From the sequence record NC_049457.1: a DNA stretch of 33,807 bases; one strand, 5' to 3'. Of this stretch, positions 4,823 to 31,504 are shown one piece after another. The notes under the pieces were generated by a model that saw only the letters and a program-made list of their open reading frames with translations, was not told the DNA's origin and did not search any database. The stretch's first letter is position 1, and every line of letters starts with the position of its first letter. The stretch is from Escherichia phage vB_EcoM-12474III. The position numbers were made by a program, and so were the translations under genes.

Positions 4823-5008
4823 GCCCGCTTCATGGGTCGGTTTTAATGCAGTTGCATAACATATTATTCATAGCACCACTGTGAGTTTATGGCTTCATTT
4901 TAGCGAGTTACTTACGCATGCATTTTAATGCACATAATTGCAGTTCTAGCCTACGTTTAACTCCAGTGTTAATCTTTGCATATCACCATATCTAATGAGA
5001 TTAGAGTT

Positions 5009-6127
5009 ATGACAGAAAGCCTTGATTACATCGACCTCAATAAACTTGAGCTTGATACAAAAAATCCACGTCTTCCTGAAGGTGTTGAACGTACCCCAGA
5101 AGCAATGCTAAATCATATAGCTCTAACAACCTCTATTGAAGACTTGATGAATGCAATCGCAGAAAATGGATTTTTTCCTGGCGAGCCTCTTATTGCGGTT
5201 AAAGAGGGAGATAAGTACACCGTTGTGGAAGGCAACCGTCGCTTAACGGCAGTTAAACTTATTCATAACCCATATGAGTGCGACAGACCCAGCTCCCGGA
5301 TGATAGAAATCGCCGAAAGCGCTAAAGATAAACTAGGTACACTAGAAAAATTACCAGTGATCGTTAGAGATACCAGAGCTGAAATTTTACCTTATTTGGG
5401 TTTCAGACATATCACTGGTGTCAAACAATGGGAACCTCTATCGAAGGCTCGTTATATCGAGCAACTTTTTGGGCTCACCTCCCCAAACTCACCGACTAAT
5501 GATCGATATCATCAGGTTGCTCGTGCAATTGGTAGCAGAAAAGATCATATCAAGAGAAATCTAGATGCTTTAGCCGTTTATAAAGTAATGGAGAGCAATA
5601 ACTTTTATGATATTGATGGATTAGATGAAGAATCGATCAAGTTTTCAATTTTATCTACAGCCTTAGCTGACGAGAAAATTGGATTGTTTGTTGGCGTCTC
5701 AGAAAAAGACGAATATGGTGATATTACATCCAATGATGTAATAATTCACCCACATCATATAAATAGAGAAAATACCAGAGAACTTACACTATGGCTTTAT
5801 AAAAAGGATGATTCCGGGAAAACAAAGGTTGGAGAGTCCCGAAATTTACGCCTATTATCTTCTGTTATTGATAACCCCAAGGCTTTAACGTCCTTTAGAA
5901 ACGGGGCTGACCTTAAGGTTGCGTATCAGTTAACTGAAGACTTAAAACAAGATTTCATGACGTTACTTTATAAAGCTGAATCTGCATTAATTGAAGCGGC
6001 TGGAATTGTTGCAACCATTGATTACAATCCTGAAGCATTGGAAGTTGCAAGACGCCTAAGTCAAAATGTCAAACTTATTGGTAATACAATTAAAGCCAAA
6101 AAGGTTTCTGACGATGAAGATTTTTAA
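5009..6127 (+). CDS. ParB/Srx-fold (ParB N-terminal nuclease-like) domain protein, cargo gene
   Basis: N-terminus carries ParB-type motifs DTKNPR (aa 16-21) and VVEGNRRLTAV (aa 72-82, the GxRR box); ATG at 5009 follows a GAG-rich RBS; AT-rich relative to the core; overlaps the start of the next gene. Confidence 0.6.
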   Translation: MTESLDYIDLNKLELDTKNPRLPEGVERTPEAMLNHIALTTSIEDLMNAIAENGFFPGEPLIAVKEGDKYTVVEGNRRLTAVKLIHNPYECDRPSSRMIEIAESAKDKLGTLEKLPVIVRDTRAEILPYLGFRHITGVKQWEPLSKARYIEQLFGLTSPNSPTNDRYHQVARAIGSRKDHIKRNLDALAVYKVMESNNFYDIDGLDEESIKFSILSTALADEKIGLFVGVSEKDEYGDITSNDVIIHPHHINRENTRELTLWLYKKDDSGKTKVGESRNLRLLSSVIDNPKALTSFRNGADLKVAYQLTEDLKQDFMTLLYKAESALIEAAGIVATIDYNPEALEVARRLSQNVKLIGNTIKAKKVSDDEDF

Positions 6128-7106
6128 AATCGGAGACATTCATCCTAGTGTTCCTCATCTTTTTGCAGACCTTGCAGAACTTGCTACGGTTATAAATTAT
6201 TCTGGTCGTTATGATCTACATAAAAATGACCTCATAACAATAAGAACTCAAAGTAACACAAGTGTGGATGATATTGATCAAGAATATCAAGAAGATGAAA
6301 ATGAAGGCTGCGATGCTGAACGCAATGACCGTTTAGAAAGACAAGTTGAAGATGTCTGGACGCAACTCGATTTTAGACAAAATTTTCTCAAGGATATTTA
6401 TCCATTTATTATTAATGGTGACTTTATTTCATTGAAAGAAAACCTCACTGAGATACAAAGAATATATATTTTCTTACTCGCATGCTCGAGGTTACGTTCT
6501 TTCACAAAGGCTAGGCAAGGAATAATACAGTTTTGGGCAAAAAATTTTGCTGTCGTAAGTAAATTTTGTGCAACAGCACTACTCCCAGCACACTCAACTG
6601 TACGAGTATTTGACGCAAACTCAGATGACAGGCGAAAATATTATGGTACTGATTTAAGAAAAGCCTTGAAAAGGCTAGGAAAAGACTTAGCTGTTCCTTA
6701 TATTAATGAGCAAGAGTGCGAAAGAGCTGATCCGAGAGGTGATGGTGGTTTTGATATAGTTGCAACTATAGAATTTGAAGATAAATTAAGTAGTAACTTT
6801 GCCTTTTTAGGTCAATGTGGAGCCCAAGAAAGAGATTGGCCCAAAAAAACACTTGAAGCCCACTCATTGAAACTACGAACATATTTTCAAGTGCATTTTG
6901 ACATACCAACTCTAATGTTTACCCCCGTATTCTATCGAAACTCAGATGGTCAATGGGTAGACAATAGCCCTTGCGCTGGAGTATTGATCATTGACAGAGC
7001 AAGGATATTACAGCTTTTAAAAAAGACAAACCATTGCCCTAAAATAGTTTCAGAACAATGGTTTCTTGATTTCGAACAAATTATCAATGATCTTAAGGTC
7101 GAATAA
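6114..7106 (+). CDS. Hypothetical protein with a possible PD-(D/E)xK nuclease motif; operon partner of the ParB-fold gene
   Basis: ATG at 6114 overlaps the upstream gene end (6127); protein contains RGDGGFDIVATIEFEDK (aa 208-224), reminiscent of the Mrr-type GDGGxD ... ExK catalytic signature; AT-rich. Confidence 0.5.
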   Translation: MKIFKIGDIHPSVPHLFADLAELATVINYSGRYDLHKNDLITIRTQSNTSVDDIDQEYQEDENEGCDAERNDRLERQVEDVWTQLDFRQNFLKDIYPFIINGDFISLKENLTEIQRIYIFLLACSRLRSFTKARQGIIQFWAKNFAVVSKFCATALLPAHSTVRVFDANSDDRRKYYGTDLRKALKRLGKDLAVPYINEQECERADPRGDGGFDIVATIEFEDKLSSNFAFLGQCGAQERDWPKKTLEAHSLKLRTYFQVHFDIPTLMFTPVFYRNSDGQWVDNSPCAGVLIIDRARILQLLKKTNHCPKIVSEQWFLDFEQIINDLKVE

Positions 7107-8045
7107 CTAATCCCAAATATCTGGAAGAGATTTAGCAACCGCCTCAAATAAAGGAGGCGGAACAGCATTGCCAACTACTGTATACTTCATATTAATAGAA
7201 GCCCGTTCAGTTTCTGGAAAAATTAGGTCTCCAAAACCCTGTAAAATAGCGGCCTCTCGATAACTAAACCTACGAGCTGGTGCATCCGAAGTAAATTGCC
7301 ACTTATCTGGACCCAATTTTTCTAATGTTGGACTTATTGGATGTAGAGGCATATGTCTAGGATTTGCAACAATTGTTTTAGATATCTGATCCCAATCTTG
7401 CCGACGGTTGCGCGATAGATAATACCAATGAAAATCGGCATCATAAAACTCACCAATAGGCCAAACAGGCATATGACCAATAGCATCACGAATTGTTGAA
7501 TATGGTTTCAAGCCATCACCATGTGTTGGTTTTGGAAATTTGTATGTAATACCATAGTCTTTTCGTATTCCTACGATAAAGATTCTCTTCCTATCTTGTG
7601 ATACGCCATAGTGGGACGCATTCAGAATTTGCGAGCTTACTGTATAACCTGCTTCTTCGAAAACTTTGAATTGATCCTTTAACAAATGTTCAAAGTTACG
7701 CCTTACCATTCCAGAAACATTCTCTACAATGAATGCTTTTGGCTTAATCTTTCTCAAAGCACGAGCAAACTCTAAATATAGAGTATTAATCTTTCTATCT
7801 GCCTTCCTTGCTCCACCCTGGCTAAATCCCTGGCAAGGATAGCATCCGATAAGCAATTCGGCAGAAGGGAACGATTGGAGTCCTGAAATATCGCCCAATA
7901 TGTAATCAGTTTCAGGATGGTTTTCTAAGTAAACGTCCCTTGCATAAGGCAAAATATCGTTTGCCATCAGCACATTGAACCCTGCTCTCAAAACTCCCGC
8001 ATCAGAACCACCACATCCAGAAAAAAGTGAAACTACAGTTGGCAT
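7107..8045 (-). CDS. DNA (cytosine-5)-methyltransferase
   Basis: Canonical C5-MTase motifs: FSGCGG (motif I, aa 8-13), PCQGFS (motif IV, aa 70-75), ENV (motif VI, aa 108-110), a QDRKR motif (VIII-like) and a C-terminal GNAVPPPL; convergent with, and abutting, the 6114..7106 gene. Confidence 0.88.
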   Translation of the reverse strand: MPTVVSLFSGCGGSDAGVLRAGFNVLMANDILPYARDVYLENHPETDYILGDISGLQSFPSAELLIGCYPCQGFSQGGARKADRKINTLYLEFARALRKIKPKAFIVENVSGMVRRNFEHLLKDQFKVFEEAGYTVSSQILNASHYGVSQDRKRIFIVGIRKDYGITYKFPKPTHGDGLKPYSTIRDAIGHMPVWPIGEFYDADFHWYYLSRNRRQDWDQISKTIVANPRHMPLHPISPTLEKLGPDKWQFTSDAPARRFSYREAAILQGFGDLIFPETERASINMKYTVVGNAVPPPLFEAVAKSLPDIWD

Positions 8046-8257
8046 CGCCCCTCCTAAAAACCGACCGCGTATTATAGCGAAACCACCCCTTGGGAAAAGC
8101 TAGATTTCGCCAAGTTTTGATATTCTCATGTTTTAGTAGTTGTGGCCATCTTTAACGAGAGAAAGATGAAATTGAGTTCTCATTAATTTTCAATAGGTTT
8201 AATTGTAAACACAGCAGGAATCAAAGCTAACACGTCGCTACGCTCATTGTTCAACCC

Positions 8258-8290
8258 CGCCATCTCTGAAAACAAGTTTCAGAAATGGCG
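8258..8290. promoter_or_regulatory. Imperfect palindrome upstream of the methyltransferase gene
   Basis: cgccatctctgaaa-acaag-tttcagaaatggcg, 13/14 complementary arms; sits in an AT-rich spacer about 210 bp upstream of the MTase start. Confidence 0.35.
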
Positions 8291-8296
8291 AGTATA

Positions 8297-8542
8297 CTAC
8301 ATCCTATGCGGTAGTTTCTTAGGCATGTTTGCTGGTCGAAATACCTCAATTTTCTGTCTACTGATATCGTTAAACCGTCTGTAATTATCCCGGACCATTT
8401 CGGCACACCCGACCAGCTCATCAGGCGTCAGATTTTCGTTGACCATAATCTGCTGTAGACGGTGGACAATGGCCATCAGCTTGATATTTTTAGTTTTATG
8501 CTGCGGTATCTCGCCTGGTATTCTGTGCATTATCCAAGCCAC
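8297..8542 (-). CDS. Small hypothetical protein (81 aa; start uncertain, possibly 8476)
   Basis: ORF only; occupies the position of the small post-A ORFs in P2-like phages. Confidence 0.4.
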   Translation of the reverse strand: MAWIMHRIPGEIPQHKTKNIKLMAIVHRLQQIMVNENLTPDELVGCAEMVRDNYRRFNDISRQKIEVFRPANMPKKLPHRM

Positions 8543-8982
8543 CCGTTTTGCTGTGCACGCTCCATCTGTTCATCTGAATAGTTCCATGCTCCATCCGTGG
8601 CAACCATTGCCCCGCCAGACACCCCCGTCTCTGGTTCATACATAACAGCAAGGCCGAGCTGATGCATAATTTCATGATTAATTCTGAATACCAGGCCACG
8701 CTCACTAAGTTCTTTCCAGTTCACAATCTCATATGCGCTTGTATTAAGCAGCTCAATACTTAGCAAGACATAATCTTCCAGCCAGTCTGACAGGTCAGTA
8801 ACATCTGTTATCCGGGCTTCAACCTTTCGCCCCGTAAACACACCCTGTACCCATTCATGCAAAATCAGCGTATCCCCGCGCTCATAATTACGGTCATTTT
8901 TCCGAAACTCTGCACGTTTCTTTCCTTCCAGCACAAGGTCGAAATATTTTGCGTGCAGCTTTACCTCGTGAATTTTTGCCAT
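8530..8982 (-). CDS. ASCH/DUF3850-like protein with a C-terminal HExxH motif
   Basis: MAKIHEVKLHAKYFDLVLEGKKRAEFRKNDRNYERGDTLILHEW... resembles PUA-like ASCH/DUF3850 domains; C-terminal part contains HEIMH followed by YEPE; ATG at 8982 overlaps the end of A. Confidence 0.6.
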   Translation of the reverse strand: MAKIHEVKLHAKYFDLVLEGKKRAEFRKNDRNYERGDTLILHEWVQGVFTGRKVEARITDVTDLSDWLEDYVLLSIELLNTSAYEIVNWKELSERGLVFRINHEIMHQLGLAVMYEPETGVSGGAMVATDGAWNYSDEQMERAQQNGWLG

Positions 8983-13010: not shown

Positions 13011-13012
13011 AA

Positions 13013-13285
13013 TCACAACCCCATCCACAAAAGCCATGCATCACGCTGTTCAACTGGTCGGTTATAAAACGCCTCTCGTACAGCGCGATTAAACTCTGGA
13101 ATGAAAACCCACTTCTCACCGACACGAGCGTTCGGCTTACTTGGATCACGAAGCTCAATAACTGGCAATTTATTCTCTTTTACCATCTTGACTACAGCCG
13201 TTTCTGGCTTACCAAGTAACTCTGCAAACTTAACCGTATGTACCGCATCAATCGGGTACTGAATCACATAGTCATTGACTTCCAT
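13013..13285 (-). CDS. cox: Cox (early-promoter repressor and excision directionality factor)
   Basis: 90-aa ORF divergent from C; conserved ...KLPVI...W...GL architecture of P2 Cox but clearly divergent sequence. Confidence 0.75.
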   Translation of the reverse strand: MEVNDYVIQYPIDAVHTVKFAELLGKPETAVVKMVKENKLPVIELRDPSKPNARVGEKWVFIPEFNRAVREAFYNRPVEQRDAWLLWMGL

Positions 13286-13437
13286 TGATTAGCCCTTTTT
13301 GCTTTCGTGTTACCCTTATTAGATCCAGTCCCTTCTAGGTCGCCCCTGTCCTTTCTAGGGACTGGCTAACACACTCAAAAGGTCACCAATACACAACCTT
13401 TTGACGGGAATATAAGTCACCAATAGGTTACTGTCAA
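13286..13437. promoter_or_regulatory. Divergent early promoter/operator region (Pe/Pc equivalent) between cox and C
   Basis: Intergenic region between divergent cox and C; contains direct repeats cccttctagg / cctttctagg and inverted arms ccagtccct ... agggactgg at 13325..13365. Confidence 0.6.
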
Positions 13438-13731
13438 ATGCAGACATTCGAAAAACTGAAAGCGATTAGGAAAGCAGAAGGCTTAACACAGGCGAAATTC
13501 AGCGAAATTAGCGGGATAGCTCTAGGAACAGTCAAAAATTACGAAAGTGGGCATAAAGACCCTGGTCTCAGCATCGTTATGCGAGTCACAAATACGCCTT
13601 TATTTAAAAAATATACGCTCTGGTTAATGACTGGTGATACGTCACCACAAGCTGGTCAGATCGCGCCGGCTCTCGCACACATTGGGCAAAAACCAACAGA
13701 ATCAGACCACTCCGAAAAACAGACTGGTTAA
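13438..13731 (+). CDS. C: Immunity repressor C
   Basis: 97-aa ORF; C-terminal ...KYTLWLMTGD...GQIAPALAHIGQ... resembles P2 C; the N-terminus is divergent. Confidence 0.8.
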   Translation: MQTFEKLKAIRKAEGLTQAKFSEISGIALGTVKNYESGHKDPGLSIVMRVTNTPLFKKYTLWLMTGDTSPQAGQIAPALAHIGQKPTESDHSEKQTG

Positions 13732-13800
13732 CACTCTATAAACATTACATTTTCACTATTTGTTACCAAGATGGTGAATACAGCGTCAGAGGGCTTTCTT

Positions 13801-14781
13801 ATGTCAATTAAGAAGCTCGATGATGGACGCTATGAAGTGGACATTAGACCTCGCGGTCGCGACGGAAAACGCATCCGCAGGAAATTTGAAAGAAAAGCTG
13901 AGGCTGTAGCATTTGAGCGATACACAATCGCCTACGCCAGCCAGAAAGAATGGGCAGGTCAGCGAGCAGATCGCAGAACTTTGAGTGAGTTGCTGGACAT
14001 CTGGTGGAAATATCACGGGCAAAACCACGAGCATGGAACAAAAGAGTTTAATCATCTGCTCAAAACCATCAGCGGCATAGGTGATATACCAGTGAGCCGG
14101 ATGAGCAAAAGAGCTTTGATGGATTATCGTTCCATGCGACTACGTGATGGTATCAGTGCCGCAACGATAAACCGTGACATGTACCGATTATCCGGCATGT
14201 TCACAAAATTAATTCAATTGGATGAATTTTCCGGGCAACACCCAATTCACGGACTGCCGCCACTGGCGGAGGCCAACCCTGAAATGACGTTCCTGGAAAA
14301 AGCAGAAATCGAAAAACTGTTAAATGTTTTGGATGGTGATGACTTACTTGTCGCACTTTTATGTCTGAGCACTGGAGGAAGATGGACGGAAGTTGCCACG
14401 CTAAAACCAGCACAGATTACAAATTGCAGGGTTACCTTCCTGAAAACCAAAAACGGTAAAAAGCGAACCGTGCCGATTTCTGAGGAACTGGAGAAAAAAG
14501 TTAAAGAGGAGGCCAGCGCTAAATTATTCAAAGTTGATTATGAGAAGTTTTGCGGGATTTTACGCAGAGTGAAGCCAGATATACCACCCAATCAGGCAAC
14601 CCACATCCTGCGGCATACATTCGCAAGCCATTTCATGATGAATGGGGGCAATATAATCGCACTGCAACAGATTCTGGGACATGCGAGCATTCAGCAGACG
14701 ATGGCCTATGCGCACCTTGCGCCTGACTACCTGCAAAATGCCGTCGCACTGAATCCTCTAAAAGGCGGAGTGACGTTATAA
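13801..14781 (+). CDS. int: Tyrosine integrase
   Basis: MSIKKLDDGRYEVDIRP... (P2 Int-like N-terminus); C-terminal HILRHTFASHFMMNGG ... LGH ... MAYAHL tyrosine-recombinase motifs. Confidence 0.9.
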   Translation: MSIKKLDDGRYEVDIRPRGRDGKRIRRKFERKAEAVAFERYTIAYASQKEWAGQRADRRTLSELLDIWWKYHGQNHEHGTKEFNHLLKTISGIGDIPVSRMSKRALMDYRSMRLRDGISAATINRDMYRLSGMFTKLIQLDEFSGQHPIHGLPPLAEANPEMTFLEKAEIEKLLNVLDGDDLLVALLCLSTGGRWTEVATLKPAQITNCRVTFLKTKNGKKRTVPISEELEKKVKEEASAKLFKVDYEKFCGILRRVKPDIPPNQATHILRHTFASHFMMNGGNIIALQQILGHASIQQTMAYAHLAPDYLQNAVALNPLKGGVTL

Positions 14782-14795
14782 ATTTCCCTTCTGAG

Positions 14796-15050
14796 TGTCC
14801 ACATAGTGTCCACACTCTCAGAACTTTGTAGCCCTTCCAGTCCCTTATAGGTTTTCTTAAGTTACTGTTTTCTTACGGAAACCGATGTAAGTGATTGATA
14901 AAAAAAACCCCCACATCATGTGGGGGAAGACAGGGATGGTGTCACAAAAAAGCACCTAACCTGATGATATAAATGGATTTATGTCAACCACTGTCCACAT
15001 AGCGTCCACATCGACCATAAATAAGCCCCTCGACTGAGGGGCTATTTTTG
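14796..15050. other. attP: attP region: Int arm-type sites flanking a probable core
   Basis: TGTCCACATAGTGTCCACA (14796..14814) and TGTCCACATAGCGTCCACA (14992..15010) are tandem copies of the reverse complement of TGTGGACA, which I recall as the P2 Int arm-site motif; the probable core is the A-run plus hairpin at about 14898..14930. Confidence 0.55.
14900..14926 (-). terminator. Rho-independent terminator downstream of ogr (likely overlapping the attP core)
   Basis: Minus strand reads stem cccccacatgatgtggggg followed by eight T. Confidence 0.7.
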
Positions 15051-21779: not shown

Positions 21780-21973
21780 CGTCCTGATTTGTACTCACTC
21801 ATTTTTCAACTGACAATTTACATAGCCCAAACGCTATCAAATCTGACAGCCTATTTTGAGCGAAAAGCAGACATTAGCATCCTTCTTATAGAAAAGGTAA
21901 ACCTGCTTCTATTTGTTAATCAATAGAGAGTAAGTCACAATGGCAGATACGAATATCGGCTGGAGAAATTAAA

Positions 21974-23056
21974 TTGAAACCAGAGCAAATGAAAAACAGG
22001 GAAGAATTAACTAGCTTTGCAACGAAACTTGCTACTCAAATCAAGATGCAAACCAGCAGCAATTTAAATGATCTTTCTACAGCCCAAGAGAGCTCGCTAT
22101 TGCCTCTAATCAATCATGCCTGGGGAGAGCAGTTTGAGGATATGAATAGGATATCCCAAAACTACCCTGGTCTCGACTATGTGCAACCGGGAAAGCGCTT
22201 AGGTTTGCAAATGACTGCCACTGCAAGAAAGGTTAAGTATCAGAAAACATTAGACAAACTTCGAAATAATGAGAAGTTAAAGGGTAAGTTTGACGAGATT
22301 TGGTTTTTCGTCCTCACGGCTGAACGCCTACCTGATAACGTACGTGAACACCCTGACGATTTTCAGTGCAAATATTTCACATTGTACGACCTAGTCGAAA
22401 AGGTAATGGGACAGACTTTAGAATTTCAGCGTGATTTTTTGACCCTTGCCCGGAAAGAATACTCGGATTATTTCTCTCCTGGGGACGTTGCTTTCAATCA
22501 GGGGTATTGTGTATCAGAAAACAAGCCGATCCCCTTTGACTTGAGTCTTTTCAACGCGTTAATTCATACTAATGAATGGTTTGATGATGTTGACGAAGGT
22601 GAGCAGATCGTATATGAATTTCTAGAACTTTTTAAAAATAGACTGCGTCAATGCACTTTATCTGCTAGAAATCTTTTAAGCAAAATTATCAGTGAGATAA
22701 ATATACCGAAGAGTACAAGCACGAAAATCGAGTTTCCTGAAAAGCAACTTTTCGGGCCACTAATGATTGACGATACAAACTATCAATCTTTTTCAAAAGA
22801 CCTTGATGATTTGTTCGAGATGAGTCTTATTGAACGATGGGACAATTATGTTGGAATGTACTATAAGGGTGATGATGCATATATCAAAAATGAACGTATG
22901 ATCAGCGTGTCATTTCCAAAGATTGAACCCGAAATGAATCTGTATGCGGCGTTATATATCTTTTATGAAAAAAATCATGATATTGCAAAACTTGTGAACG
23001 CAATTGAAAATAGTGATTTTTCTCTGCTCGCTGACAGCACTTGCCAAAATAATTAG
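21974..23056 (+). CDS. Hypothetical 360-aa protein, AT-rich cargo between FI and G (start TTG at 21974 with GGAG 8 nt upstream; alternative ATG at 21989)
   Basis: Long ORF on the strand opposite to all flanking late genes; visibly AT-rich codon usage; no transmembrane segments; no family recognised. Confidence 0.7.
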   Translation: MKPEQMKNREELTSFATKLATQIKMQTSSNLNDLSTAQESSLLPLINHAWGEQFEDMNRISQNYPGLDYVQPGKRLGLQMTATARKVKYQKTLDKLRNNEKLKGKFDEIWFFVLTAERLPDNVREHPDDFQCKYFTLYDLVEKVMGQTLEFQRDFLTLARKEYSDYFSPGDVAFNQGYCVSENKPIPFDLSLFNALIHTNEWFDDVDEGEQIVYEFLELFKNRLRQCTLSARNLLSKIISEINIPKSTSTKIEFPEKQLFGPLMIDDTNYQSFSKDLDDLFEMSLIERWDNYVGMYYKGDDAYIKNERMISVSFPKIEPEMNLYAALYIFYEKNHDIAKLVNAIENSDFSLLADSTCQNN

Positions 23057-23307
23057 TTAGTAAAAGGATGCATTTATGCTCTTAGTTACTCACTCTGTTG
23101 AATTTATTTTAAGTTATTAATATAGATATGGGCTTATATATCTTTAATAGAAATGACTAGCGTGAAAAATATGGGGCTAACTGGTCTGCCTCTCTTTTGA
23201 CCAAGACAATTTGCTGGAAAACTTCCGCTCTTGGCACAGAGCGGACTGTCAGATTAGACTTTACTCTGTGCCATAGATATGTAAGCTCCCACCAGAGCTC
23301 ATACAAC

Positions 23308-23838: not shown

Positions 23839-25767
23839 TTACACCTGTGCGACGTTATACCATGTGCCATTAATGTATTTTTGTATTGGTCTGAATACTG
23901 CGGGGTCATCACCATCGACTTCACCGACAATACCAAGCCCTGTAATTACATGGCCTGATTTTTCATACATCACACCTTTTTGCATAGTCTGAACAACACG
24001 TGTGCCCAGGCGAATATCTCGTACATAGCGAGAATCCGATTCAGCTTTGGTATATGCACCAACATCTCCCGCAGAGGGTTTGCGGGTTGTGGTGTAAAAC
24101 TCTGACCAGTTAGCCTCAAATCCATAACCATCACGTGCTGAACGATAAAAAATACCGCCGTTCTTATAATTCACACGGAACTGTACGGCAGGGCAACTCC
24201 CCGCATTCATATTGAAGTGGAGGATTAATGTCGATGCACCGCTGATATCTGCATCATAAACACCGCTATTCCAGTTCCAGCCAACAGCTTTATCATTTGC
24301 AACCCTGCTTCCTGTTTGCCCTAAAGCAAATGCAGGCTGCTGGTTTTTCGTGTTGTAGTCTCGTCGCCAGCCGGGGGCATAAGCATCACCATGATTAATA
24401 TAAGTGAATTGAGCGTTAGTGGTGCCGCCTCCGGTAGAAGTGCTTGGTGTTGTTACACGGATGGTCATGGCACCTTTATTACCCATAACCTCAATAACGC
24501 AACCTGCAAGATGAATAGTTCCACAGCCAGTATCGGTAATAATTTTATTATTGCCGTATGACCATGAACATTTGCACATCCAGTACGGATGATTAAATGC
24601 ACCACGGGAATCCAGCCATTCAATAAACTGAGCGGTTGTCCAGTTTCCGGCTTCAGTGCTCAAAGCGCCGCTATAAGCACGACAGGCACCGATATTTTTC
24701 GTGAAGGTATCCTTTCCCGGAATATCCGCACCGTTCTGATCTTTCTGAAGACGTTTTTCAGCATTGTCATAGGCAGACTTCACTGCTTTTGGTGTTGCGG
24801 CCAGCGTTTCAGAATCACTGTTGGCGGCGCTACTGAGCTGAACAAGACCTTTCCGCGCCGTGGTGGCGTCCTGTGCAGTGTATTTCCCGTTAGCAAGGTC
24901 ATACGCGGCCTTTACCGCCTTTGGCGTTGCCGCAAGCGTTTCAGAATCGCTGTTGGTGACGCTACTGAGCTGGACAAGACCTTTTCGCGCTGTGGTGGCG
25001 TCCTGTGCGGTATATTTCCCGTTAGCAAGGTCATATGCTGCTTTTACCGCTTTTGGTGTTGCGGCAAGCGTTTCAGACGTGCTGTTGGTGGCACTACTGA
25101 GCTGGACAAGACCTTTTCGCGCTGTGGTAGCGTCCTGTGCGGTATATTTCCCGTTAGCCAGGTCATATGCGGCCTTAACCGCTTTCGGCGTTGCAGCCAG
25201 TGTTTCAGACGTGCTGTTGGTCGCACTGCTTAACTGAGTAAAACCTTTTGCGGTCAGCGAGGCGTCCGGGTGACGTCGTGACTGTTCATGTTCTGCAATT
25301 TTGTCATCAACGTAATCCTGCGTCGCCATCACCGTTGTGGTGTCAATGGTCAGCTCCACTGAGGTCACACTGCTGACGATGATGACCATGCGACAGGTCT
25401 GCGAACGCCCTGAGCCTTCGGCAAGAGCTGGCTTATAACTTTCGGCCATGTTCGCCACGGCAATTAATGTTCCCGCATCATCGTACAGGCCAAGCTCACG
25501 CATCCAGAAACCGCCCACCTCCGGCGGAATAACCAGCTCTGCGATAATATAATTACTGTTTCGTTTGTCCTGGCTGATTTTGTTCAGCGCATGTCGCCAG
25601 ACTTCATGGATAAGCCCGGTCTGTCCGGCATCCGGGACAGGCAATTTACCACCGCCATCCCCGACGGCCATCGTGGTAATGTTGACCTTCCGCCCTCCCG
25701 GCGCGGTTGCCGCTGCCAGCTTTGCTGCACCGGCAGTGGTGATAACGGTTCTGAATTTTGTGCTCAT
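23839..25767 (-). CDS. H: Tail fiber protein gpH
   Basis: 642-aa ORF; N-terminus MSTKFRTVITTAGAAKLAAATAPGGRKVNITTMAVGDGGG... is P2 H-like; contains internal 44-aa tandem repeats. Confidence 0.9.
   Translation of the reverse strand: MSTKFRTVITTAGAAKLAAATAPGGRKVNITTMAVGDGGGKLPVPDAGQTGLIHEVWRHALNKISQDKRNSNYIIAELVIPPEVGGFWMRELGLYDDAGTLIAVANMAESYKPALAEGSGRSQTCRMVIIVSSVTSVELTIDTTTVMATQDYVDDKIAEHEQSRRHPDASLTAKGFTQLSSATNSTSETLAATPKAVKAAYDLANGKYTAQDATTARKGLVQLSSATNSTSETLAATPKAVKAAYDLANGKYTAQDATTARKGLVQLSSVTNSDSETLAATPKAVKAAYDLANGKYTAQDATTARKGLVQLSSAANSDSETLAATPKAVKSAYDNAEKRLQKDQNGADIPGKDTFTKNIGACRAYSGALSTEAGNWTTAQFIEWLDSRGAFNHPYWMCKCSWSYGNNKIITDTGCGTIHLAGCVIEVMGNKGAMTIRVTTPSTSTGGGTTNAQFTYINHGDAYAPGWRRDYNTKNQQPAFALGQTGSRVANDKAVGWNWNSGVYDADISGASTLILHFNMNAGSCPAVQFRVNYKNGGIFYRSARDGYGFEANWSEFYTTTRKPSAGDVGAYTKAESDSRYVRDIRLGTRVVQTMQKGVMYEKSGHVITGLGIVGEVDGDDPAVFRPIQKYINGTWYNVAQV
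24760..25250. repeat. Tandem 132-bp coding repeat (about 3.7 copies) inside tail fiber gene H
   Basis: gttagcaagg / gttagccagg landmarks recur at 24889, 25021 and 25153 (period 132); the protein repeats KGLVQLSSATNSTSETLAATPKAVKAAYDLANGKYTAQDATTAR. Confidence 0.9.
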
Positions 25768-28276: not shown

Positions 28277-29062
28277 ATGGTCAGCTATAATGTGACTAAT
28301 GTGTGGGGGCTAATCGTTTTTTTCCTTTGTAGCTTTGCAGTATTAGCATTTTTTAGCTTTGGTAAAAGTAACCTTATGAGGCTTATTGCACATTATTTCA
28401 ATTTTGGATATTCAGACAAAAAATTAAAAAGACTTGACCGCGAGTGGCGCGACATTCAACTATTTAAAATAATTAACGGAATCAATGTATCAGGCATTGA
28501 AAATGTGAGAATGATACAGCAGGGACTGATTGATGGAAAACTAAAAACATCGTATTTTTTCCTTACTCGCATCTGGGGTGACATAACAAAACCACCACAC
28601 ATAATTAAAACAATAATTGTAATTCTGGCCAGTATTTTTTACATTCTCCTCGCATGTTATATACACAACAAACAATCCGCTATAGTAAGAGATGCCATAG
28701 GCATACCATATAAAAATATGATGTACTATGTTTATAGTGACAAAGTTCTTTTATCCTTCAACAATAAAACAGTTGAATTCAATAAAACTTATAGCCTTGC
28801 CGATTGCAAGAGGCTACGAAACGTATTTATAAAAGACACACTTCCTGAGATCGCCTGCAATAAGCTCTTACAGCTAAACGAGGAGGACTCCGAATGGTTA
28901 AGTCAGGAGATTAAAGATAATAACAGCCAAAAAAAAGCATTATTAATAATATCCCTCATCTATTTCATTTCAGGTCTGGTTATATTCCTGTCATATACAA
29001 AATTCCTTTACGCCAATAAGAAGGTTGTAGAATACAAAGCATCAAATAAAAATCACTCATAA
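28277..29062 (+). CDS. Predicted membrane protein (261 aa), AT-rich cargo between V and S
   Basis: ATG at 28277 with an AGGAG RBS 6 nt upstream; three hydrophobic helix-like segments (aa about 10-30, 115-135, 225-245); strongly AT-rich; strand opposite to the flanking late genes. Confidence 0.75.
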   Translation: MVSYNVTNVWGLIVFFLCSFAVLAFFSFGKSNLMRLIAHYFNFGYSDKKLKRLDREWRDIQLFKIINGINVSGIENVRMIQQGLIDGKLKTSYFFLTRIWGDITKPPHIIKTIIVILASIFYILLACYIHNKQSAIVRDAIGIPYKNMMYYVYSDKVLLSFNNKTVEFNKTYSLADCKRLRNVFIKDTLPEIACNKLLQLNEEDSEWLSQEIKDNNSQKKALLIISLIYFISGLVIFLSYTKFLYANKKVVEYKASNKNHS

Positions 29063-29133: not shown

Positions 29134-29586
29134 CTAACGCTCAAGGTGAGCCAGGATAATCTCTTCAATCATCTGCACATCCTCACCGGTAAAGCCGAGC
29201 AGAGGACGCGCCGGATAATCAATTTTCTTACCGTTTTTCCGGGTTTCTTCCGACAGACCGAACTGATGCACACTGGCGATTTTCGGCGACTTCCCGCCGT
29301 AAAATTCCATTGATGCCTGTTCCGGGCTGGCGCGGATATGCAAAAAACGACTGGTGATAAGTTTCGCAAACATTTTTCGCTTAACACGACCGGTCTTTTT
29401 TCTGGCGCTCTGCTGCTGGCGTGGCGCGTAGGGTGTGCCGTCCGGGGCTTTCTGTGCCATCACCCGACGCTGCTGACTCTGACGCAGACGTTTCGCCAGT
29501 TCGGCGCTCAGTCGCCGACGCCCTGACGGTGACAGCGATTCAATAAGTCCCGCCAGCCGGTCTTCAAAACGCTTAAACTCATTCAT
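29134..29586 (-). CDS. S: Tail completion protein gpS
   Basis: 150-aa ORF, P2 gpS length and position. Confidence 0.88.
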   Translation of the reverse strand: MNEFKRFEDRLAGLIESLSPSGRRRLSAELAKRLRQSQQRRVMAQKAPDGTPYAPRQQQSARKKTGRVKRKMFAKLITSRFLHIRASPEQASMEFYGGKSPKIASVHQFGLSEETRKNGKKIDYPARPLLGFTGEDVQMIEEIILAHLER

Positions 29587-30046
29587 CCCACTTGCTCACC
29601 AGTTCGCCATTGATATAAAGCTCCATCGGGCGGGTGGCCGGCTCCGGCGGCGTGGGTTCCGGGATATTCTTCACATGCAGCGCGCCGTCCACCTCACTGA
29701 CCAGCGTGCGCTCGGTCAGCATCAGGCTGATGCTGATATCAAAGCTGCTGTCATTGTTGATGTCTGCATAAAACGTGAAGCCCTTTTTCTGACCTTCGTC
29801 AGTGGTCATGATGTCGGGCTGATTTTCCCGCAGCCACGCCAGCACCGGCACGATGAGCAGGTCAAAATCACCGGTAAAGTCGGTCACAATGACATTGAGC
29901 GTGTAACGCTTTTCGAATGACAGCGACGTCGCCAGTGTGGAGGCAATACTCCCGTTATCCACGAATATCCGCAGCATATCGGGGTTAGTTTTCAGCACCG
30001 TGACGGCATCAGTCAGCGCCCTGCGCAGGCTGTCGGGTTTGAGCAT
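29579..30046 (-). CDS. R: Tail completion protein gpR
   Basis: 155-aa ORF, P2 gpR length and position. Confidence 0.88.
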   Translation of the reverse strand: MLKPDSLRRALTDAVTVLKTNPDMLRIFVDNGSIASTLATSLSFEKRYTLNVIVTDFTGDFDLLIVPVLAWLRENQPDIMTTDEGQKKGFTFYADINNDSSFDISISLMLTERTLVSEVDGALHVKNIPEPTPPEPATRPMELYINGELVSKWDE

Positions 30047-30299
30047 CGTTTTCGTCCTGACAGTGTTTAATCATTTTTACCTGGCTGGCACAGCGCGCCA
30101 GCGCGTTCTCAAGCTGCCGGATATCGGCACTTAAATCACCGTTCGTCTGCGGGTCGCTGCCCGGCATCGGGCAAAGACTCACTTTCGGGCAGGCGTTGTG
30201 GACAATCACTGGCATCGGTGCAGGCGGGGCGCTGGTGCAACCGGCGCACAGCATCAGGCAGGTCAGCGCCGTACCAGCGGCGAAAATCTTCGTTTTCAT
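30009..30299 (-). CDS. lysC: LysC, outer-membrane lipoprotein spanin (Rz1-like), embedded out of frame in lysB and overlapping R
   Basis: 96-aa ORF with signal peptide and lipobox (LMLCAGC); Pro-rich mature region; overlaps the 3' end of lysB in another frame. Confidence 0.75.
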   Translation of the reverse strand: MKTKIFAAGTALTCLMLCAGCTSAPPAPMPVIVHNACPKVSLCPMPGSDPQTNGDLSADIRQLENALARCASQVKMIKHCQDENDAQTRQPAQGAD

Positions 30300-30579
30300 T
30301 CAGTAACCTCGTGATGGTTTTCTCGCGCTGTGCTTCACGTTTCGCGGCGTTCTCCAGCTCCTGACGCAGTGCCACCTGCGCCAGCTCGTTTTTGTCTGCC
30401 CTGGTAAGGGCAACATGAAGCTGGTTTTTCAGCATGGTGATGGTCGTCTGCTGTTCACTGGCGACGTTGTTCGCCCTGTCCAGCGAGGCGCGCAGGCTGG
30501 CGTTTTCATGCTTCGCCAGAAACAGCCCCGCCACCGCCAGCGATAACAACACGACCAGCACAATCATCAGCTTTGACAT
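30136..30579 (-). CDS. lysB: LysB, inner-membrane spanin (Rz-like)
   Basis: N-terminal transmembrane segment MSKLMIVLVVLLSLAVAGLFLA followed by a coiled-coil-like region; conserved position. Confidence 0.85.
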   Translation of the reverse strand: MSKLMIVLVVLLSLAVAGLFLAKHENASLRASLDRANNVASEQQTTITMLKNQLHVALTRADKNELAQVALRQELENAAKREAQREKTITRLLNENEDFRRWYGADLPDAVRRLHQRPACTDASDCPQRLPESESLPDAGQRPADER

Positions 30580-30992
30580 GGTTCCCGCCCCTCAAAACGC
30601 TGACGGCAGGCTTTACGTATCAGCCGGAAGAACACCGACGCCACAAGATAAATCAGCGCGGTAAAAATCCACCCGGCAGCGACCAGCGCGATAAACGTCG
30701 CCACCATCACCACCAGAGCCGCCGCCCGTCTGCGCCACCGCACCGGCTGCAAAAACAGCGACGTGACAATCTTCACGGCCAGCGATTCCGGCGGCAGCTC
30801 CCGCCCGTAGCGTTCCAGCACATACTCAGTGGCATACACGCCGACACCACCGGCAACCACACAGATAACCGTCGCCAGAATCGCCCAGGTGGCGACAAAA
30901 CTGACGGCCACGCTCTGCGGGTAAATCAGGGACAGTGCCAGCATCAGCGCCAGCGACACGTTCAGCATCAGTGAAAGGGATAATTTCTTCAT
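30567..30992 (-). CDS. lysA: LysA (membrane protein, lysis timing)
   Basis: 141-aa multi-hydrophobic-segment ORF between K and lysB, as in P2. Confidence 0.85.
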   Translation of the reverse strand: MKKLSLSLMLNVSLALMLALSLIYPQSVAVSFVATWAILATVICVVAGGVGVYATEYVLERYGRELPPESLAVKIVTSLFLQPVRWRRRAAALVVMVATFIALVAAGWIFTALIYLVASVFFRLIRKACRQRFEGREPCQS

Positions 30993-31006: not shown

Positions 31007-31504
31007 TTAAGCCGGTACGCCGCCAGCGGTACGCCAGACGGTGACCAGTTTTTCCAGTGAATGCTCACGCTGACCGTAACCGGCACCCGGCAGGGACGCC
31101 CAGATATTGCGACAGCGTGAAATGGCGCGCTCAATGCGTCCCGCCCGGATGTCATCCAGCGCACCGCGTTCGCGGATCAACTGAATGGCAAGTCTGTCCT
31201 GTGACAACGGACTGAAATCCGGCAGGGCAAGCTGTTTGCGGTAATGCGGCCAGAACAGGTAAAGCTGCTGATAGCGACCGGAGGCCGTGGATTTTTCACC
31301 GCGACGGTTAAACACCTTCGCCGGTCGGCCATGTGCGAACGGGTGGTCACTGTAGTCGGTGAAAATTTCCGGCTTCCCGTCCAGTCCGGTGACTATCACG
31401 TCATAGCCCCGGTTTTTCGTCAGCGGATGGTTTGCCGTCCCTTCGGACACGGCCAGCATGTCGAGAAAGGCGGCGATATTCTGATGCGTGTTAATAACCG
31501 GCAT
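31007..31504 (-). CDS. K: Endolysin gpK
   Basis: 165-aa ORF MPVINTHQNIAAFLDMLAVSEGTANHPLTKNRGYDV..., matching P2 gpK. Confidence 0.9.
   Translation of the reverse strand: MPVINTHQNIAAFLDMLAVSEGTANHPLTKNRGYDVIVTGLDGKPEIFTDYSDHPFAHGRPAKVFNRRGEKSTASGRYQQLYLFWPHYRKQLALPDFSPLSQDRLAIQLIRERGALDDIRAGRIERAISRCRNIWASLPGAGYGQREHSLEKLVTVWRTAGGVPA

What the first reader, a model, noticed from the sequence alone, without database searches (positions are those of the whole stretch)
30009..30299. Embedded lipoprotein spanin gene (lysC) out of frame within lysB and overlapping R
The 96-aa ORF has a lipobox signal and a proline-rich mature region and lies entirely in an alternative frame of lysB and R. It is the P2-type Rz1 equivalent and is easily missed by annotation pipelines.
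Basis: partly seen in the sequence, partly recalled or inferred. Interest (0 to 1): 0.25.

Follow-up and report, generated by a model that had tools for sequence, protein, structure and literature searches.

The report
P2 lysC outer-membrane spanin gene
This is the already well-known lysC gene of a P2-like phage, a small outer-membrane lipoprotein that works with LysB to break the host's outer membrane at the end of infection; it is ordinary, and the only useful point is that databases often annotate its start codon wrongly.

Summary
The 96-codon ORF at 30009..30299 (minus strand) is real. It is 96% identical to bacteriophage P2 LysC and 100% identical to a public "outer membrane lipoprotein Rz1" call. 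It scores far above cut-off for NCBIfam NF038368 and Pfam PF23793. The window is a whole P2-like Peduovirus genome.

The geometry is not "embedded":
- lysC starts in the +1 frame of lysB and shares 164 nt with it.
- It then runs 89 nt on its own.
- It ends 38 nt inside tail gene R.
This is the textbook "overlapped" spanin architecture, and it was found in all 77 related loci analysed.

The lipobox cysteine is Cys21 (LCAG|C). The -1 and -2 residues are valid, but -3 is Cys, so consensus and PROSITE patterns fail, as already noted for P2 LysC. That odd Cys is forced by the co-encoded LysB motif AVRRLH.

The single-coding stretch shows purifying selection only in the lysC frame (pN/pS 0.30 against 1.5-1.8).

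Annotation is inconsistent. The same DNA is called as 96 aa, as 81 aa (RefSeq, without signal peptide) and as 52 aa. Comparative data support the 96-aa start.

Already known; low interest.

The parts
30009..30299 (-). lysC CDS, 96 aa: o-spanin (outer-membrane lipoprotein precursor), Rz1 equivalent
   Evidence: ORF; NF038368 128.9 bits and PF23793 62.3 bits; 96% identical to P2 LysC; 100% identical to the 'Phage outer membrane lipoprotein Rz1' call in LR595869
30307..30310 (-). GAGG Shine-Dalgarno for lysC, 7-nt spacer to the ATG, lying inside lysB
   Evidence: Sequence. Kongari 2018 marks the same GAGG for P2 lysC. An SD-like motif is present in 76/78 relatives
30240..30299 (-). Signal peptide, codons 1-20 (MKTKIFAAGTALTCLMLCAG): n-region with net charge +2, hydrophobic h-region, lipobox L-C-A-G
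   Evidence: Hydropathy and charge; predicted helix 8-20; an ATG at this position in 78/78 relatives and a 20-aa signal peptide in 75/78
30237..30239 (-). Cys21 codon (TGC): predicted signal peptidase II cleavage and lipidation site; +2 is Thr
   Evidence: Invariant in alignment A4 and in 78/78 loci, always with G/A/S at -1 and Thr at +2. LipoP result reported for P2 LysC
30252..30254 (-). Internal Met16 codon, used as the start in RefSeq/PGAP 81-aa LysC models; probably not the true start
   Evidence: PGAP CDS of 246 nt on identical DNA. Met16 is absent in 13/78 relatives while Met1 is present in all. 37/120 database representatives have 8 or fewer residues before the Cys
30136..30299 (-). 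Dual-coding segment: LysC residues 1-55 in the +1 frame of LysB residues 94-147
   Evidence: Frame arithmetic; same arrangement in 77/77 loci, with 140-176 nt overlap; lipobox LCAGCT co-encoded with LysB AVRRLH
30047..30135 (-). lysC-only segment between the lysB stop and the R start (LysC residues about 56-84, core of the C-terminal helix with Cys70 and Cys80)
   Evidence: pN/pS is 0.30 in the lysC frame against 1.46 and 1.81 in the other frames. Stops occur in 0/77 loci in the lysC frame against 39/77 and 74/77
30009..30046 (-). Overlap of the lysC 3' end (residues 85-96, poorly conserved tail) with the first 12 codons of tail gene R
   Evidence: pN/pS 1.4 in the lysC frame; low conservation
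30136..30579 (-). lysB CDS, 147 aa: i-spanin (N-terminal transmembrane helix, periplasmic domain, Cys120 and Cys126). It is 6 aa longer than P2 LysB because the P2 stop TGA is CGA here
   Evidence: TIGR03495 171 bits; alignment with P2 LysB
29579..30046 (-). R, tail completion protein (context; not part of the lysis system)
   Evidence: PF06891 155 bits
30567..30992 (-). lysA homologue (context: lysis cassette)
   Evidence: P2 annotation at the homologous position; NF038378
31007..31504 (-). K endolysin homologue (context: lysis cassette)
   Evidence: P2 annotation; annotated as endolysin in MK907236

Best explanation
The ORF is lysC of a P2-like (Peduovirus) phage. It encodes the outer-membrane half (o-spanin) of a two-component spanin whose inner-membrane half is LysB.

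Shown here:
- The gene is translated in its own frame.
- It begins at the ATG at 30299, inside lysB in the +1 frame, behind its own GAGG ribosome-binding site.
- It ends 38 nt into R.
- It carries a 20-residue signal peptide ending in LCAG|C.

Inferred from established spanin biology (lambda Rz/Rz1; P2 lysB/lysC reported to complement lambda Rz/Rz1 nulls):
- The precursor is exported by Sec, diacylglycerylated on Cys21, cleaved by signal peptidase II and N-acylated.
- Because +2 is Thr rather than Asp, Lol sorts it to the inner leaflet of the outer membrane.
- The mature 76-residue protein is an extended proline-rich tether (residues 21-55, with the invariant CPxV..CPMPxS motif) followed by one long helix (56-88) carrying Cys70 and Cys80.
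- Its C-terminal part binds the periplasmic C-terminus of LysB, forming a bridge across the periplasm that is threaded through the peptidoglycan.
[quoted passage not shown] This removes the last barrier to phage release.

The unusual Cys at lipobox position -3 is most simply a by-product of dual coding. The same bases encode the conserved LysB motif Ala-Val-Arg-Arg-Leu-His.
For: Identity:
- 92/96 identical to P2 LysC.
- NF038368 128.9 bits against a cut-off of 27, and PF23793 62.3 bits against 27.
- 100% identical protein annotated as outer membrane lipoprotein Rz1 in Peduovirus P22H4.
- PGAP names this locus lysC in 1,604 of 5,426 complete E. coli genomes.

Context:
- The order K, lysA, lysB, lysC, R, S matches P2.
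- LysB matches TIGR03495.

Translation:
- In the 89-nt single-coding stretch, pN/pS is 0.30 in the lysC frame against 1.46 and 1.81 in the other frames.
- No stop codon occurs in that frame in 77/77 loci.

Start and signal peptide, over 78 loci from many Enterobacterales genera:
- ATG in 78/78; net positive n-region in 78/78; 20-aa signal peptide in 75/78.
- G/A/S at -1 in 78/78; Thr at +2 in 78/78; SD-like motif in 76/78.

Structure and residues:
- Cys21, Cys37, Cys43, Cys70 and Cys80 are invariant.
- AlphaFold model: helix 8-20, coil 21-55, helix 56-88 with pLDDT about 80-90.

Literature:
- The Kongari 2018 supplement lists P2 LysC as overlapped, 96 aa, with a 20-aa signal and LCAG|CTS. It notes that LipoP finds cleavage at 20 and that there is no PROSITE hit.
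- Lynch 2010 describes the P2 lysC start in the +1 frame of lysB and its stop inside R.

Dual-coding origin of the -3 Cys:
- LysC codons CTG TGC GCC GGT TGC are read as LysB GCT GTG CGC CGG TTG CAC.
- Loci with Val GTC have Ser at -3.
- Loci with Ile in LysB have a canonical LSGC lipobox.
Against: - No experiment here shows lipidation, outer-membrane localisation, LysB binding or lytic function.
- The lipobox fails the consensus [LVI][ASTVI][GAS]C and PROSITE PS51257 patterns because of Cys at -3.
- No lipoprotein predictor (LipoP or SignalP) could be run on this exact sequence. The LipoP result is taken from a published note on P2 LysC, which differs at 4 residues, none within -9..+8 of the cleavage site.
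- The paper with the complementation evidence (Markov et al. 2004) could not be read, so it is cited from memory and through secondary citation.
- The 77 comparison loci were retrieved using two conserved LysC peptides. Conservation at residues 40-48 and 53-61 is therefore inflated by ascertainment.
- The AlphaFold model has only moderate confidence (mean pLDDT 69.5).
Confidence: 0.93

Rival explanations
1. The true product starts at Met16 (ATG at 30254), giving the 81-aa protein that RefSeq/PGAP annotates. With only 5 residues before Cys21 it would have no signal peptide and would be a cytoplasmic protein, not a lipoprotein.
For: PGAP annotates exactly this on DNA identical to the window (246-nt CDS, WP_237765977.1). 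37 of 120 database cluster representatives begin at about this point. Met16 is present in 65/78 relatives.
Against: - Met16 is replaced by Leu or Thr in 13/78 relatives, whereas the upstream ATG is present in 78/78 with an SD-like motif in 76/78.
- The upstream 15 codons always encode a positively charged n-region plus a hydrophobic stretch.
- The NCBIfam LysC model itself aligns from residue 4, so it covers 12 residues upstream of the PGAP start.
- The P2 GenBank record and the curated spanin database use the 96-aa form.
- An invariant Cys with a small -1 residue makes sense only after a signal peptide.
Confidence: 0.03
2. The ORF is a chance open frame created by the GC-rich lysB and R coding sequences, and is not translated.
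For: Alternative-frame ORFs of similar or greater length (112 and 133 aa) occur nearby without known function. 70% of the ORF overlaps other genes, which would conserve its DNA anyway.
Against: - The 89-nt stretch between the lysB stop and the R start has no other coding role.
- That stretch shows pN/pS 0.30 in this frame only. Stops occur in 0/77 loci here, against 39/77 and 74/77 in the other frames.
- There are strong matches to two curated family models.
- Five Cys residues are invariant.
Confidence: 0.01
3. The lipidated residue is Cys18 (or Cys14) rather than Cys21.
For: The published note on P2 LysC says LipoP finds cleavage sites at both 20 and 17. Cys18 is 90% conserved.
Against: - Cys18 is preceded by Leu17 (99% conserved), which is not an allowed -1 residue for signal peptidase II.
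- Cys18 is Ser in 6/78 and Leu in 2/78 relatives, and Cys14 is variable (Tyr, Phe, Ser). Cys21 is invariant, with G/A/S at -1 in 78/78.
- The conservation of Cys18 is explained by the overlapping LysB Val-Arg codons.
Confidence: 0.03
4. LysC is mainly a regulator of lysis timing, as the old P2 record says ('regulation of lysis'; 'affects timing of lysis' for lysA and lysB), rather than a membrane-fusion spanin.
For: The GenBank AF063097 notes. From memory, the P2 gor alleles in lysC suppress premature lysis on an rpoC mutant (Markov et al. 2004; not readable here).
Against: - The anatomy is that of an o-spanin: lipoprotein signal, Thr at +2, periplasmic Cys residues, and pairing with a type II membrane protein inside a holin-endolysin cassette.
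- P2 LysB/LysC is treated as a paradigm two-component spanin in the curated survey.
- The 'timing' phenotype is what spanin defects look like in standard shaken cultures (established knowledge from lambda Rz/Rz1 work).
Confidence: 0.03

Closest known systems
Bacteriophage P2 LysC (AAM83596.1; AF063097 8202..8492)
   Same: Same gene. It is 92/96 aa identical and has the same 96-aa length. The residues from -9 to +8 around the cleavage site are identical (LTCLMLCAG|CTSAPPAP). It has the same +1-frame start inside lysB, the same 38-nt overlap with R and the same GAGG ribosome-binding site.
   Different: There are four substitutions: K2R, A11V, M29T and H34P. The overlap with lysB is 164 nt instead of 146 nt. 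The P2 lysB stop TGA is CGA here, which is synonymous in lysC (Ser48) and lengthens LysB by RPADER.
Lambda Rz1 (o-spanin, embedded architecture)
   Same: Small outer-membrane lipoprotein encoded in the +1 frame of the i-spanin gene. It has a proline-rich region after the lipidated Cys, periplasmic Cys residues and a position in the lysis cassette. The function is reported to be interchangeable with lysB/lysC (from memory of Markov 2004; cited).
   Different: No Rz1 family hit was obtained, and only LysC families matched. Rz1 is fully embedded in Rz, has a 40-aa mature form with about 25% Pro and a single Cys, and has no predicted helix. LysC is overlapped, has a 76-aa mature form with 12% Pro and four Cys, and has a long predicted C-terminal helix.
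LysC of Burkholderia P2-like phages KS14 and KL3, and Fels-2
   Same: Same family and the same overlapped arrangement that extends into R. Signal peptidase II site at 20|21.
   Different: Only 37-49% identical. Their lipoboxes are canonical or near-canonical (LCAC in KS14, LSGC in Fels-2). The overlap with R is only 8 bp.
T4 PseT.3/PseT.2 (separated) and T1 gp11 (unimolecular spanin)
   Same: Same functional class: outer-membrane disruption through a lipoprotein anchored in the outer membrane.
   Different: Different gene architecture and no sequence similarity. gp11 combines both anchors in one chain.

Membership tests
LysC family (NCBIfam NF038368 P2_Rz1 equivalog; Pfam PF23793) | Score above the curated cut-off of the family model | tested here: met
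   128.9 bits against 27, covering profile positions 1-85 of 85. 62.3 bits against 27, covering 1-69 of 69.
LysC family (NCBIfam NF038368 P2_Rz1 equivalog; Pfam PF23793) | Gene starts inside lysB out of frame, is not fully embedded, and lies just upstream of tail gene R | tested here: met
   +1 frame; 164 nt shared with lysB, 89 nt alone, 38 nt shared with R. Same layout in 77/77 relatives.
Two-component spanin, o-spanin component | N-terminal signal peptidase II signal: positively charged n-region, hydrophobic h-region, Cys preceded by a small residue | tested here: met
   MKTK (+2), 13 hydrophobic residues, then A-G|C21. Conserved in 78/78 relatives.
Two-component spanin, o-spanin component | Match to the consensus lipobox [LVI][ASTVI][GAS]C or PROSITE PS51257 | tested here: not met
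   The -3 residue is Cys, so both patterns fail. The same is recorded for P2 LysC itself ('No hit by Prosite'). Non-consensus lipoboxes are documented in o-spanins. This is a failure of the pattern, not of membership.
Two-component spanin, o-spanin component | Outer-membrane sorting: no Asp at +2 | tested here: met
   +2 is Thr in the window and in 78/78 relatives. The sorting rule itself is established knowledge of the E. coli Lol pathway.
Two-component spanin, o-spanin component | [quoted passage not shown] | tested here: met
   LysB matches TIGR03495 at 171 bits and has the hydrophobic segment LMIVLVVLLSLAVAGLFLA at residues 4-22. K endolysin and lysA lie upstream.
Two-component spanin, o-spanin component | Periplasmic cysteines available for disulfide bonds | tested here: met
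   LysC Cys37, 43, 70 and 80 are invariant. LysB Cys120 and Cys126 are 95% conserved. Kongari lists 4 and 2 for P2.
Two-component spanin, o-spanin component | Actual lipidation, outer-membrane location, complex with the i-spanin, and requirement for outer-membrane disruption | not testable with these tools
   Needs wet-lab assays. The evidence for P2 rests on the literature (Markov 2004, not readable here).
Embedded spanin architecture (lambda Rz/Rz1 type) | o-spanin gene wholly contained within the i-spanin gene | tested here: not met
   lysC extends 127 nt beyond the lysB stop. None of the 77 relatives is embedded.
Overlapped spanin architecture (P2 type) | o-spanin starts within the i-spanin gene and ends beyond it | tested here: met
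   P2 is the named example of this class.

The most novel reading that the evidence does not exclude
The near-universal Cys at lipobox position -3 (70/78), together with the frequently retained internal Met16, may be more than a by-product of dual coding. It could reflect a second function. One possibility is alternative processing or lipidation at Cys18 against Cys21 (LipoP reports both sites for P2). Another is a second, signal-less 81-aa isoform initiated at Met16 that stays in the cytoplasm and modulates lysis timing. Nothing here excludes low-level use of either. The comparative data make both unnecessary.
Probability: 0.04. Interest if true: 0.35.

Novelty: already known. Interest (0 to 1): 0.08.

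Why it matters
Biologically it adds nothing new. P2 lysB/lysC is the textbook example of an overlapped two-component spanin, and this copy is 96% identical to it.

The practical value is for curation.
- The same DNA is deposited with three different lysC models: 96 aa, 81 aa and 52 aa.
- The RefSeq 81-aa model, shared by about a third of database representatives, lacks the signal peptide that the protein needs in order to be a lipoprotein.
- Anyone screening prophages for spanins with lipoprotein predictors will therefore miss these entries.

The analysis also gives a clean worked example of how dual coding shapes a signal sequence: the non-consensus LCAGC lipobox is dictated by the LysB motif AVRRLH.

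Tried and rejected
- Consensus lipobox patterns (DOLOP [LVI][ASTVI][GAS]C, the PROSITE PS51257 core, and [ILMFTV][^REKD][GAS]C) gave no match. I did not take this as refutation. The -1 and -2 residues, the n- and h-regions and the invariance of Cys21 are all valid, and the curated spanin database records the same pattern failure for P2 LysC.
- Reading Markov et al. 2004 (PMC438596) for the experimental evidence failed because the paper is not held.
- The 'putative transcription attenuator' annotated inside P2 lysC corresponds to window 30084-30102. The terminator scan found nothing there, and I did not pursue it.
- My first script picked Ser-Cys14 as the lipobox in 34 loci. This was corrected by restricting the distance to the NGDLS motif.
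- ORF length as evidence of coding was rejected, because alternative-frame ORFs of 112-133 aa occur nearby.
- The chance-ORF, Met16-start and Cys18-lipidation readings were considered and rejected on comparative grounds.
- No structure-library search was run. The model is a coil plus one helix, so fold matches would be meaningless.

Full report
**What is at the coordinates**

The ORF listing returns a minus-strand ORF at 30009..30299, ATG to TGA, of 96 aa:
MKTKIFAAGTALTCLMLCAGCTSAPPAPMPVIVHNACPKVSLCPMPGSDPQTNGDLSADIRQLENALARCASQVKMIKHCQDENDAQTRQPAQGAD

A GAGG lies 7 nt upstream of the ATG. The neighbouring minus-strand genes are:
- K endolysin, 31007..31504
- lysA, 30567..30992
- lysB, 30136..30579 (TIGR03495, 171 bits)
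- R, 29579..30046 (PF06891)
- S, 29134..29586 (PF05069 / TIGR01635)

The window is a complete P2-like Peduovirus genome. This region is 100% identical to Escherichia phage vB_EcoM-12474II/IV/V and 97% identical to P2. Whole-genome blastn shows that the window is the reverse complement of P2, circularly permuted.

**Identity**

- The protein is 92/96 identical to P2 LysC (AAM83596.1). That gene is annotated at the homologous position of AF063097 (8202..8492).
- It scores 128.9 bits on the NCBIfam equivalog NF038368 'Rz1-like lysis system protein LysC' (cut-off 27). It scores 62.3 bits on Pfam PF23793 LysC.
- An identical protein is annotated 'Phage outer membrane lipoprotein Rz1' in Peduovirus P22H4.
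- The DNA occurs in 1,604 of 5,426 complete E. coli genomes, where PGAP names it lysC.
- tblastn finds it in 271 phage records, from Escherichia, Yersinia, Klebsiella, Salmonella, Burkholderia and Pseudomonas phages.

**Geometry: overlapped, not embedded**

- The lysC start lies in the +1 frame of lysB.
- 164 nt (30136-30299) are shared with lysB.
- 89 nt (30047-30135) encode LysC only.
- The last 38 nt (30009-30046) overlap the start of R, which is in the third frame.

I retrieved 80 related loci from species-representative genomes and reconstructed lysB, lysC and R in 77 of them.
- lysC was in the +1 frame of lysB in 77/77.
- The overlap with lysB was 140-176 nt, and the overlap with R was 14-71 nt.
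- 62-107 nt were lysC-only.
- None of the 77 was embedded.

This is the 'overlapped' class, for which P2 is the published type example (Kongari et al. 2018, PMC6139136). Lynch et al. 2010 (PMC3091744) describe the same layout.

**Is the frame really translated?**

ORF length alone is not evidence here, because unannotated alternative-frame ORFs of 112 and 133 aa lie nearby. The decisive test is the stretch that encodes nothing else. I used codons 62-84, which also lie outside the two peptide patterns used to retrieve the loci:

| Frame | Pooled pN/pS | Loci with an in-frame stop |
|---|---|---|
| lysC frame | 0.30 | 0/77 |
| second frame | 1.46 | 39/77 |
| third frame | 1.81 | 74/77 |

Across the gene, constraint shifts between the partners.
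- Signal-peptide codons (pN/pS 0.66) overlie the conserved LysB motif ENExxRRWY..LP.AVRRLH.
- The highly conserved LysC motif CPxVSLCPMPGSDPxTNGDLSADIR overlies the less conserved LysB tail.
- The last 12 LysC residues, which overlap R, evolve freely (pN/pS 1.4).

**The lipobox**

Cysteines occur at positions 14, 18, 21, 37, 43, 70 and 80. Cys21 is preceded by Ala-Gly, follows a 13-residue hydrophobic stretch, and sits after an MKTK n-region. Position -3 is Cys18, so the consensus [LVI][ASTVI][GAS]C and the PROSITE PS51257 core pattern do not match.

This is a known property of P2 LysC. The Kongari et al. supplement lists it as 'ovl', 96 aa, with a 20-aa signal, LCAG | CTS and 4 periplasmic Cys. 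[quoted passage not shown] No hit by Prosite'. The window and P2 are identical from -9 to +8 around the site.

Comparative data settle which Cys matters.
- Cys21 is invariant. It has G/A/S at -1 and Thr at +2 in 78/78 sequences (77 loci plus the window). With no Asp at +2, the protein is predicted to go to the outer membrane.
- Cys18 is Ser in 6 sequences and Leu in 2.
- Cys14 is freely replaced.
- Leu17 would be an invalid -1 residue for cleavage before Cys18.

The odd -3 Cys is explained by dual coding.
- LysC codons CTG TGC GCC GGT TGC ACC (L C A G C T) are read in the lysB frame as GCT GTG CGC CGG TTG CAC (A V R R L H).
- Given Val-Arg in LysB, LysC position -3 can only be Cys, Ser, Phe or Tyr.
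- Loci with Val GTC have Ser at -3.
- The two loci with Ile in LysB have a canonical LSGC lipobox.

**Which start codon?**

Three gene models exist for this identical DNA:
- 96 aa (P2 GenBank).
- 81 aa, starting at Met16 (RefSeq/PGAP WP_237765977.1).
- 52 aa, starting at Met45 (MK907236).

Of 120 database cluster representatives, 37 have 8 or fewer residues before the lipobox Cys. The evidence favours the 96-aa start.
- The upstream ATG is present in 78/78 relatives. An SD-like motif is present in 76/78, and the n-region is net positive in 78/78.
- Met16 is missing in 13/78.
- The NCBIfam LysC profile itself aligns from residue 4.

The remark that pipelines mishandle this gene is partly right. 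It is now usually found, but it is often truncated, and several phage records still lack it (for example L-413C).

**Shape of the protein**

AlphaFold2 was run with a 23-sequence alignment (mean pLDDT 69.5). It gives a helix at 8-20 (signal peptide), no regular structure at 21-55, and one long helix at 56-88 with pLDDT about 80-90.

Proline content is 9/76 (12%) in the mature protein, with 8 of the 9 in the first 30 residues. The protein is thus a proline-rich tether followed by a helix carrying Cys70 and Cys80. This is unlike lambda Rz1, which is 40 aa, about 25% Pro and has one Cys.

**Mechanism**

This part is inferred from established spanin biology: Berry 2008 and 2012 and Rajaure 2015, as cited in PMC6139136, and Markov 2004, which is recalled from memory and was not readable.
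- Sec export is followed by Lgt, LspA and Lnt processing at Cys21 and Lol sorting to the outer membrane.
- The C-terminal part binds the periplasmic C-terminus of the inner-membrane protein LysB.
- Disulfide bonds stabilise the complex.
- After the Y holin and K endolysin remove the peptidoglycan, the complexes drive inner-outer membrane fusion and release the phage.

None of these steps was tested here.

**Minor difference from P2**

The P2 lysB stop TGA is CGA here. The change is synonymous in lysC (AGT to AGC, Ser48). It extends LysB by six residues (RPADER) to 147 aa. The resulting 164-nt overlap was seen in 4 of 77 loci.

**Verdict**

The corrections are:
- The architecture is overlapped, not embedded.
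- The lipobox is non-consensus.
- Only the tether is proline-rich.

The only added value is the start-codon curation issue and the dual-coding explanation of the LCAGC lipobox. Interest is low.

Noticed in passing
window 30252-30299; L003 620-865: RefSeq/PGAP annotates LysC on DNA identical to the window as an 81-aa protein starting at Met16 (MLCAGC...), which has no signal peptide. 37 of 120 database cluster representatives share this truncated start. Comparative data (ATG in 78/78 relatives, Met16 in only 65/78) favour the upstream start.
   Followed up: yes
window 30136-30153: LysB is 147 aa here against 141 aa in P2. The P2 stop TGA is CGA, which is a synonymous change in the overlapping lysC frame, and it adds RPADER to the LysB C-terminus. 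LysB is thought to contact LysC through its C-terminus. The variant is seen in 4 of 77 related loci.
   Followed up: partly
window 4850-8762: The P2 old/tin locus is replaced by different cargo. It holds a 383-aa ORF (4976..6127 +) whose N-terminal 160 aa match PADLOC PD-Lambda-5_A (7.8e-23), with no Pfam hit. Next come a 346-aa ORF (6066..7106 +) with no hit and a C-5 cytosine DNA methyltransferase (7107..8045 -, PF00145). This looks like an anti-phage defence or methylase island at a known P2 variable hotspot.
   Followed up: partly
window 21871-23224: The P2 fun(Z) locus is replaced by a 360-aa ORF (21974..23056 +). It carries an SMEK_N domain (PF21941, 1.6e-19) and a weak PADLOC Aga_REase-PNTD match. 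It is a probable defence cargo gene.
   Followed up: partly
window 28277-29062 (+): An AT-rich 261-aa ORF with predicted membrane segments lies between S and V. It corresponds to the non-essential P2 orf30 and has no Pfam, NCBIfam or PADLOC hit.
   Followed up: partly
window 13011-14965 and 24036-25250: The immunity/integrase region and part of the tail-fibre H gene are strongly diverged from P2 (70-85% identity or no match). The H region contains internal repeats of about 208 bp (24778-25249) that each align to the same P2 segment.
   Followed up: no
window 30084-30102: This position corresponds to the 'putative transcription attenuator' hairpin annotated inside P2 lysC (GCTGGCgcgctgtGCCAGC, within the lysC-only stretch). 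It has no T-run and was not picked up by the terminator scan.
   Followed up: partly
L007, L041, L055, L060, L069 (genome contigs): P2-type lysB-lysC-R loci appear in assemblies labelled Vagococcus, Chryseobacterium, Sporobacter (MAG) and Kocuria. These are implausible hosts for an enterobacterial Peduovirus. Contamination or mis-binning of those assemblies is likely.
   Followed up: no
P0010, P0020, P0097, P0106; L063: Several database 'LysC' entries of 139-168 aa are LysB-LysC fusions, with a LysB N-terminus running into the LysC frame. They are presumably frameshift errors or pseudogenes in those assemblies.
   Followed up: no
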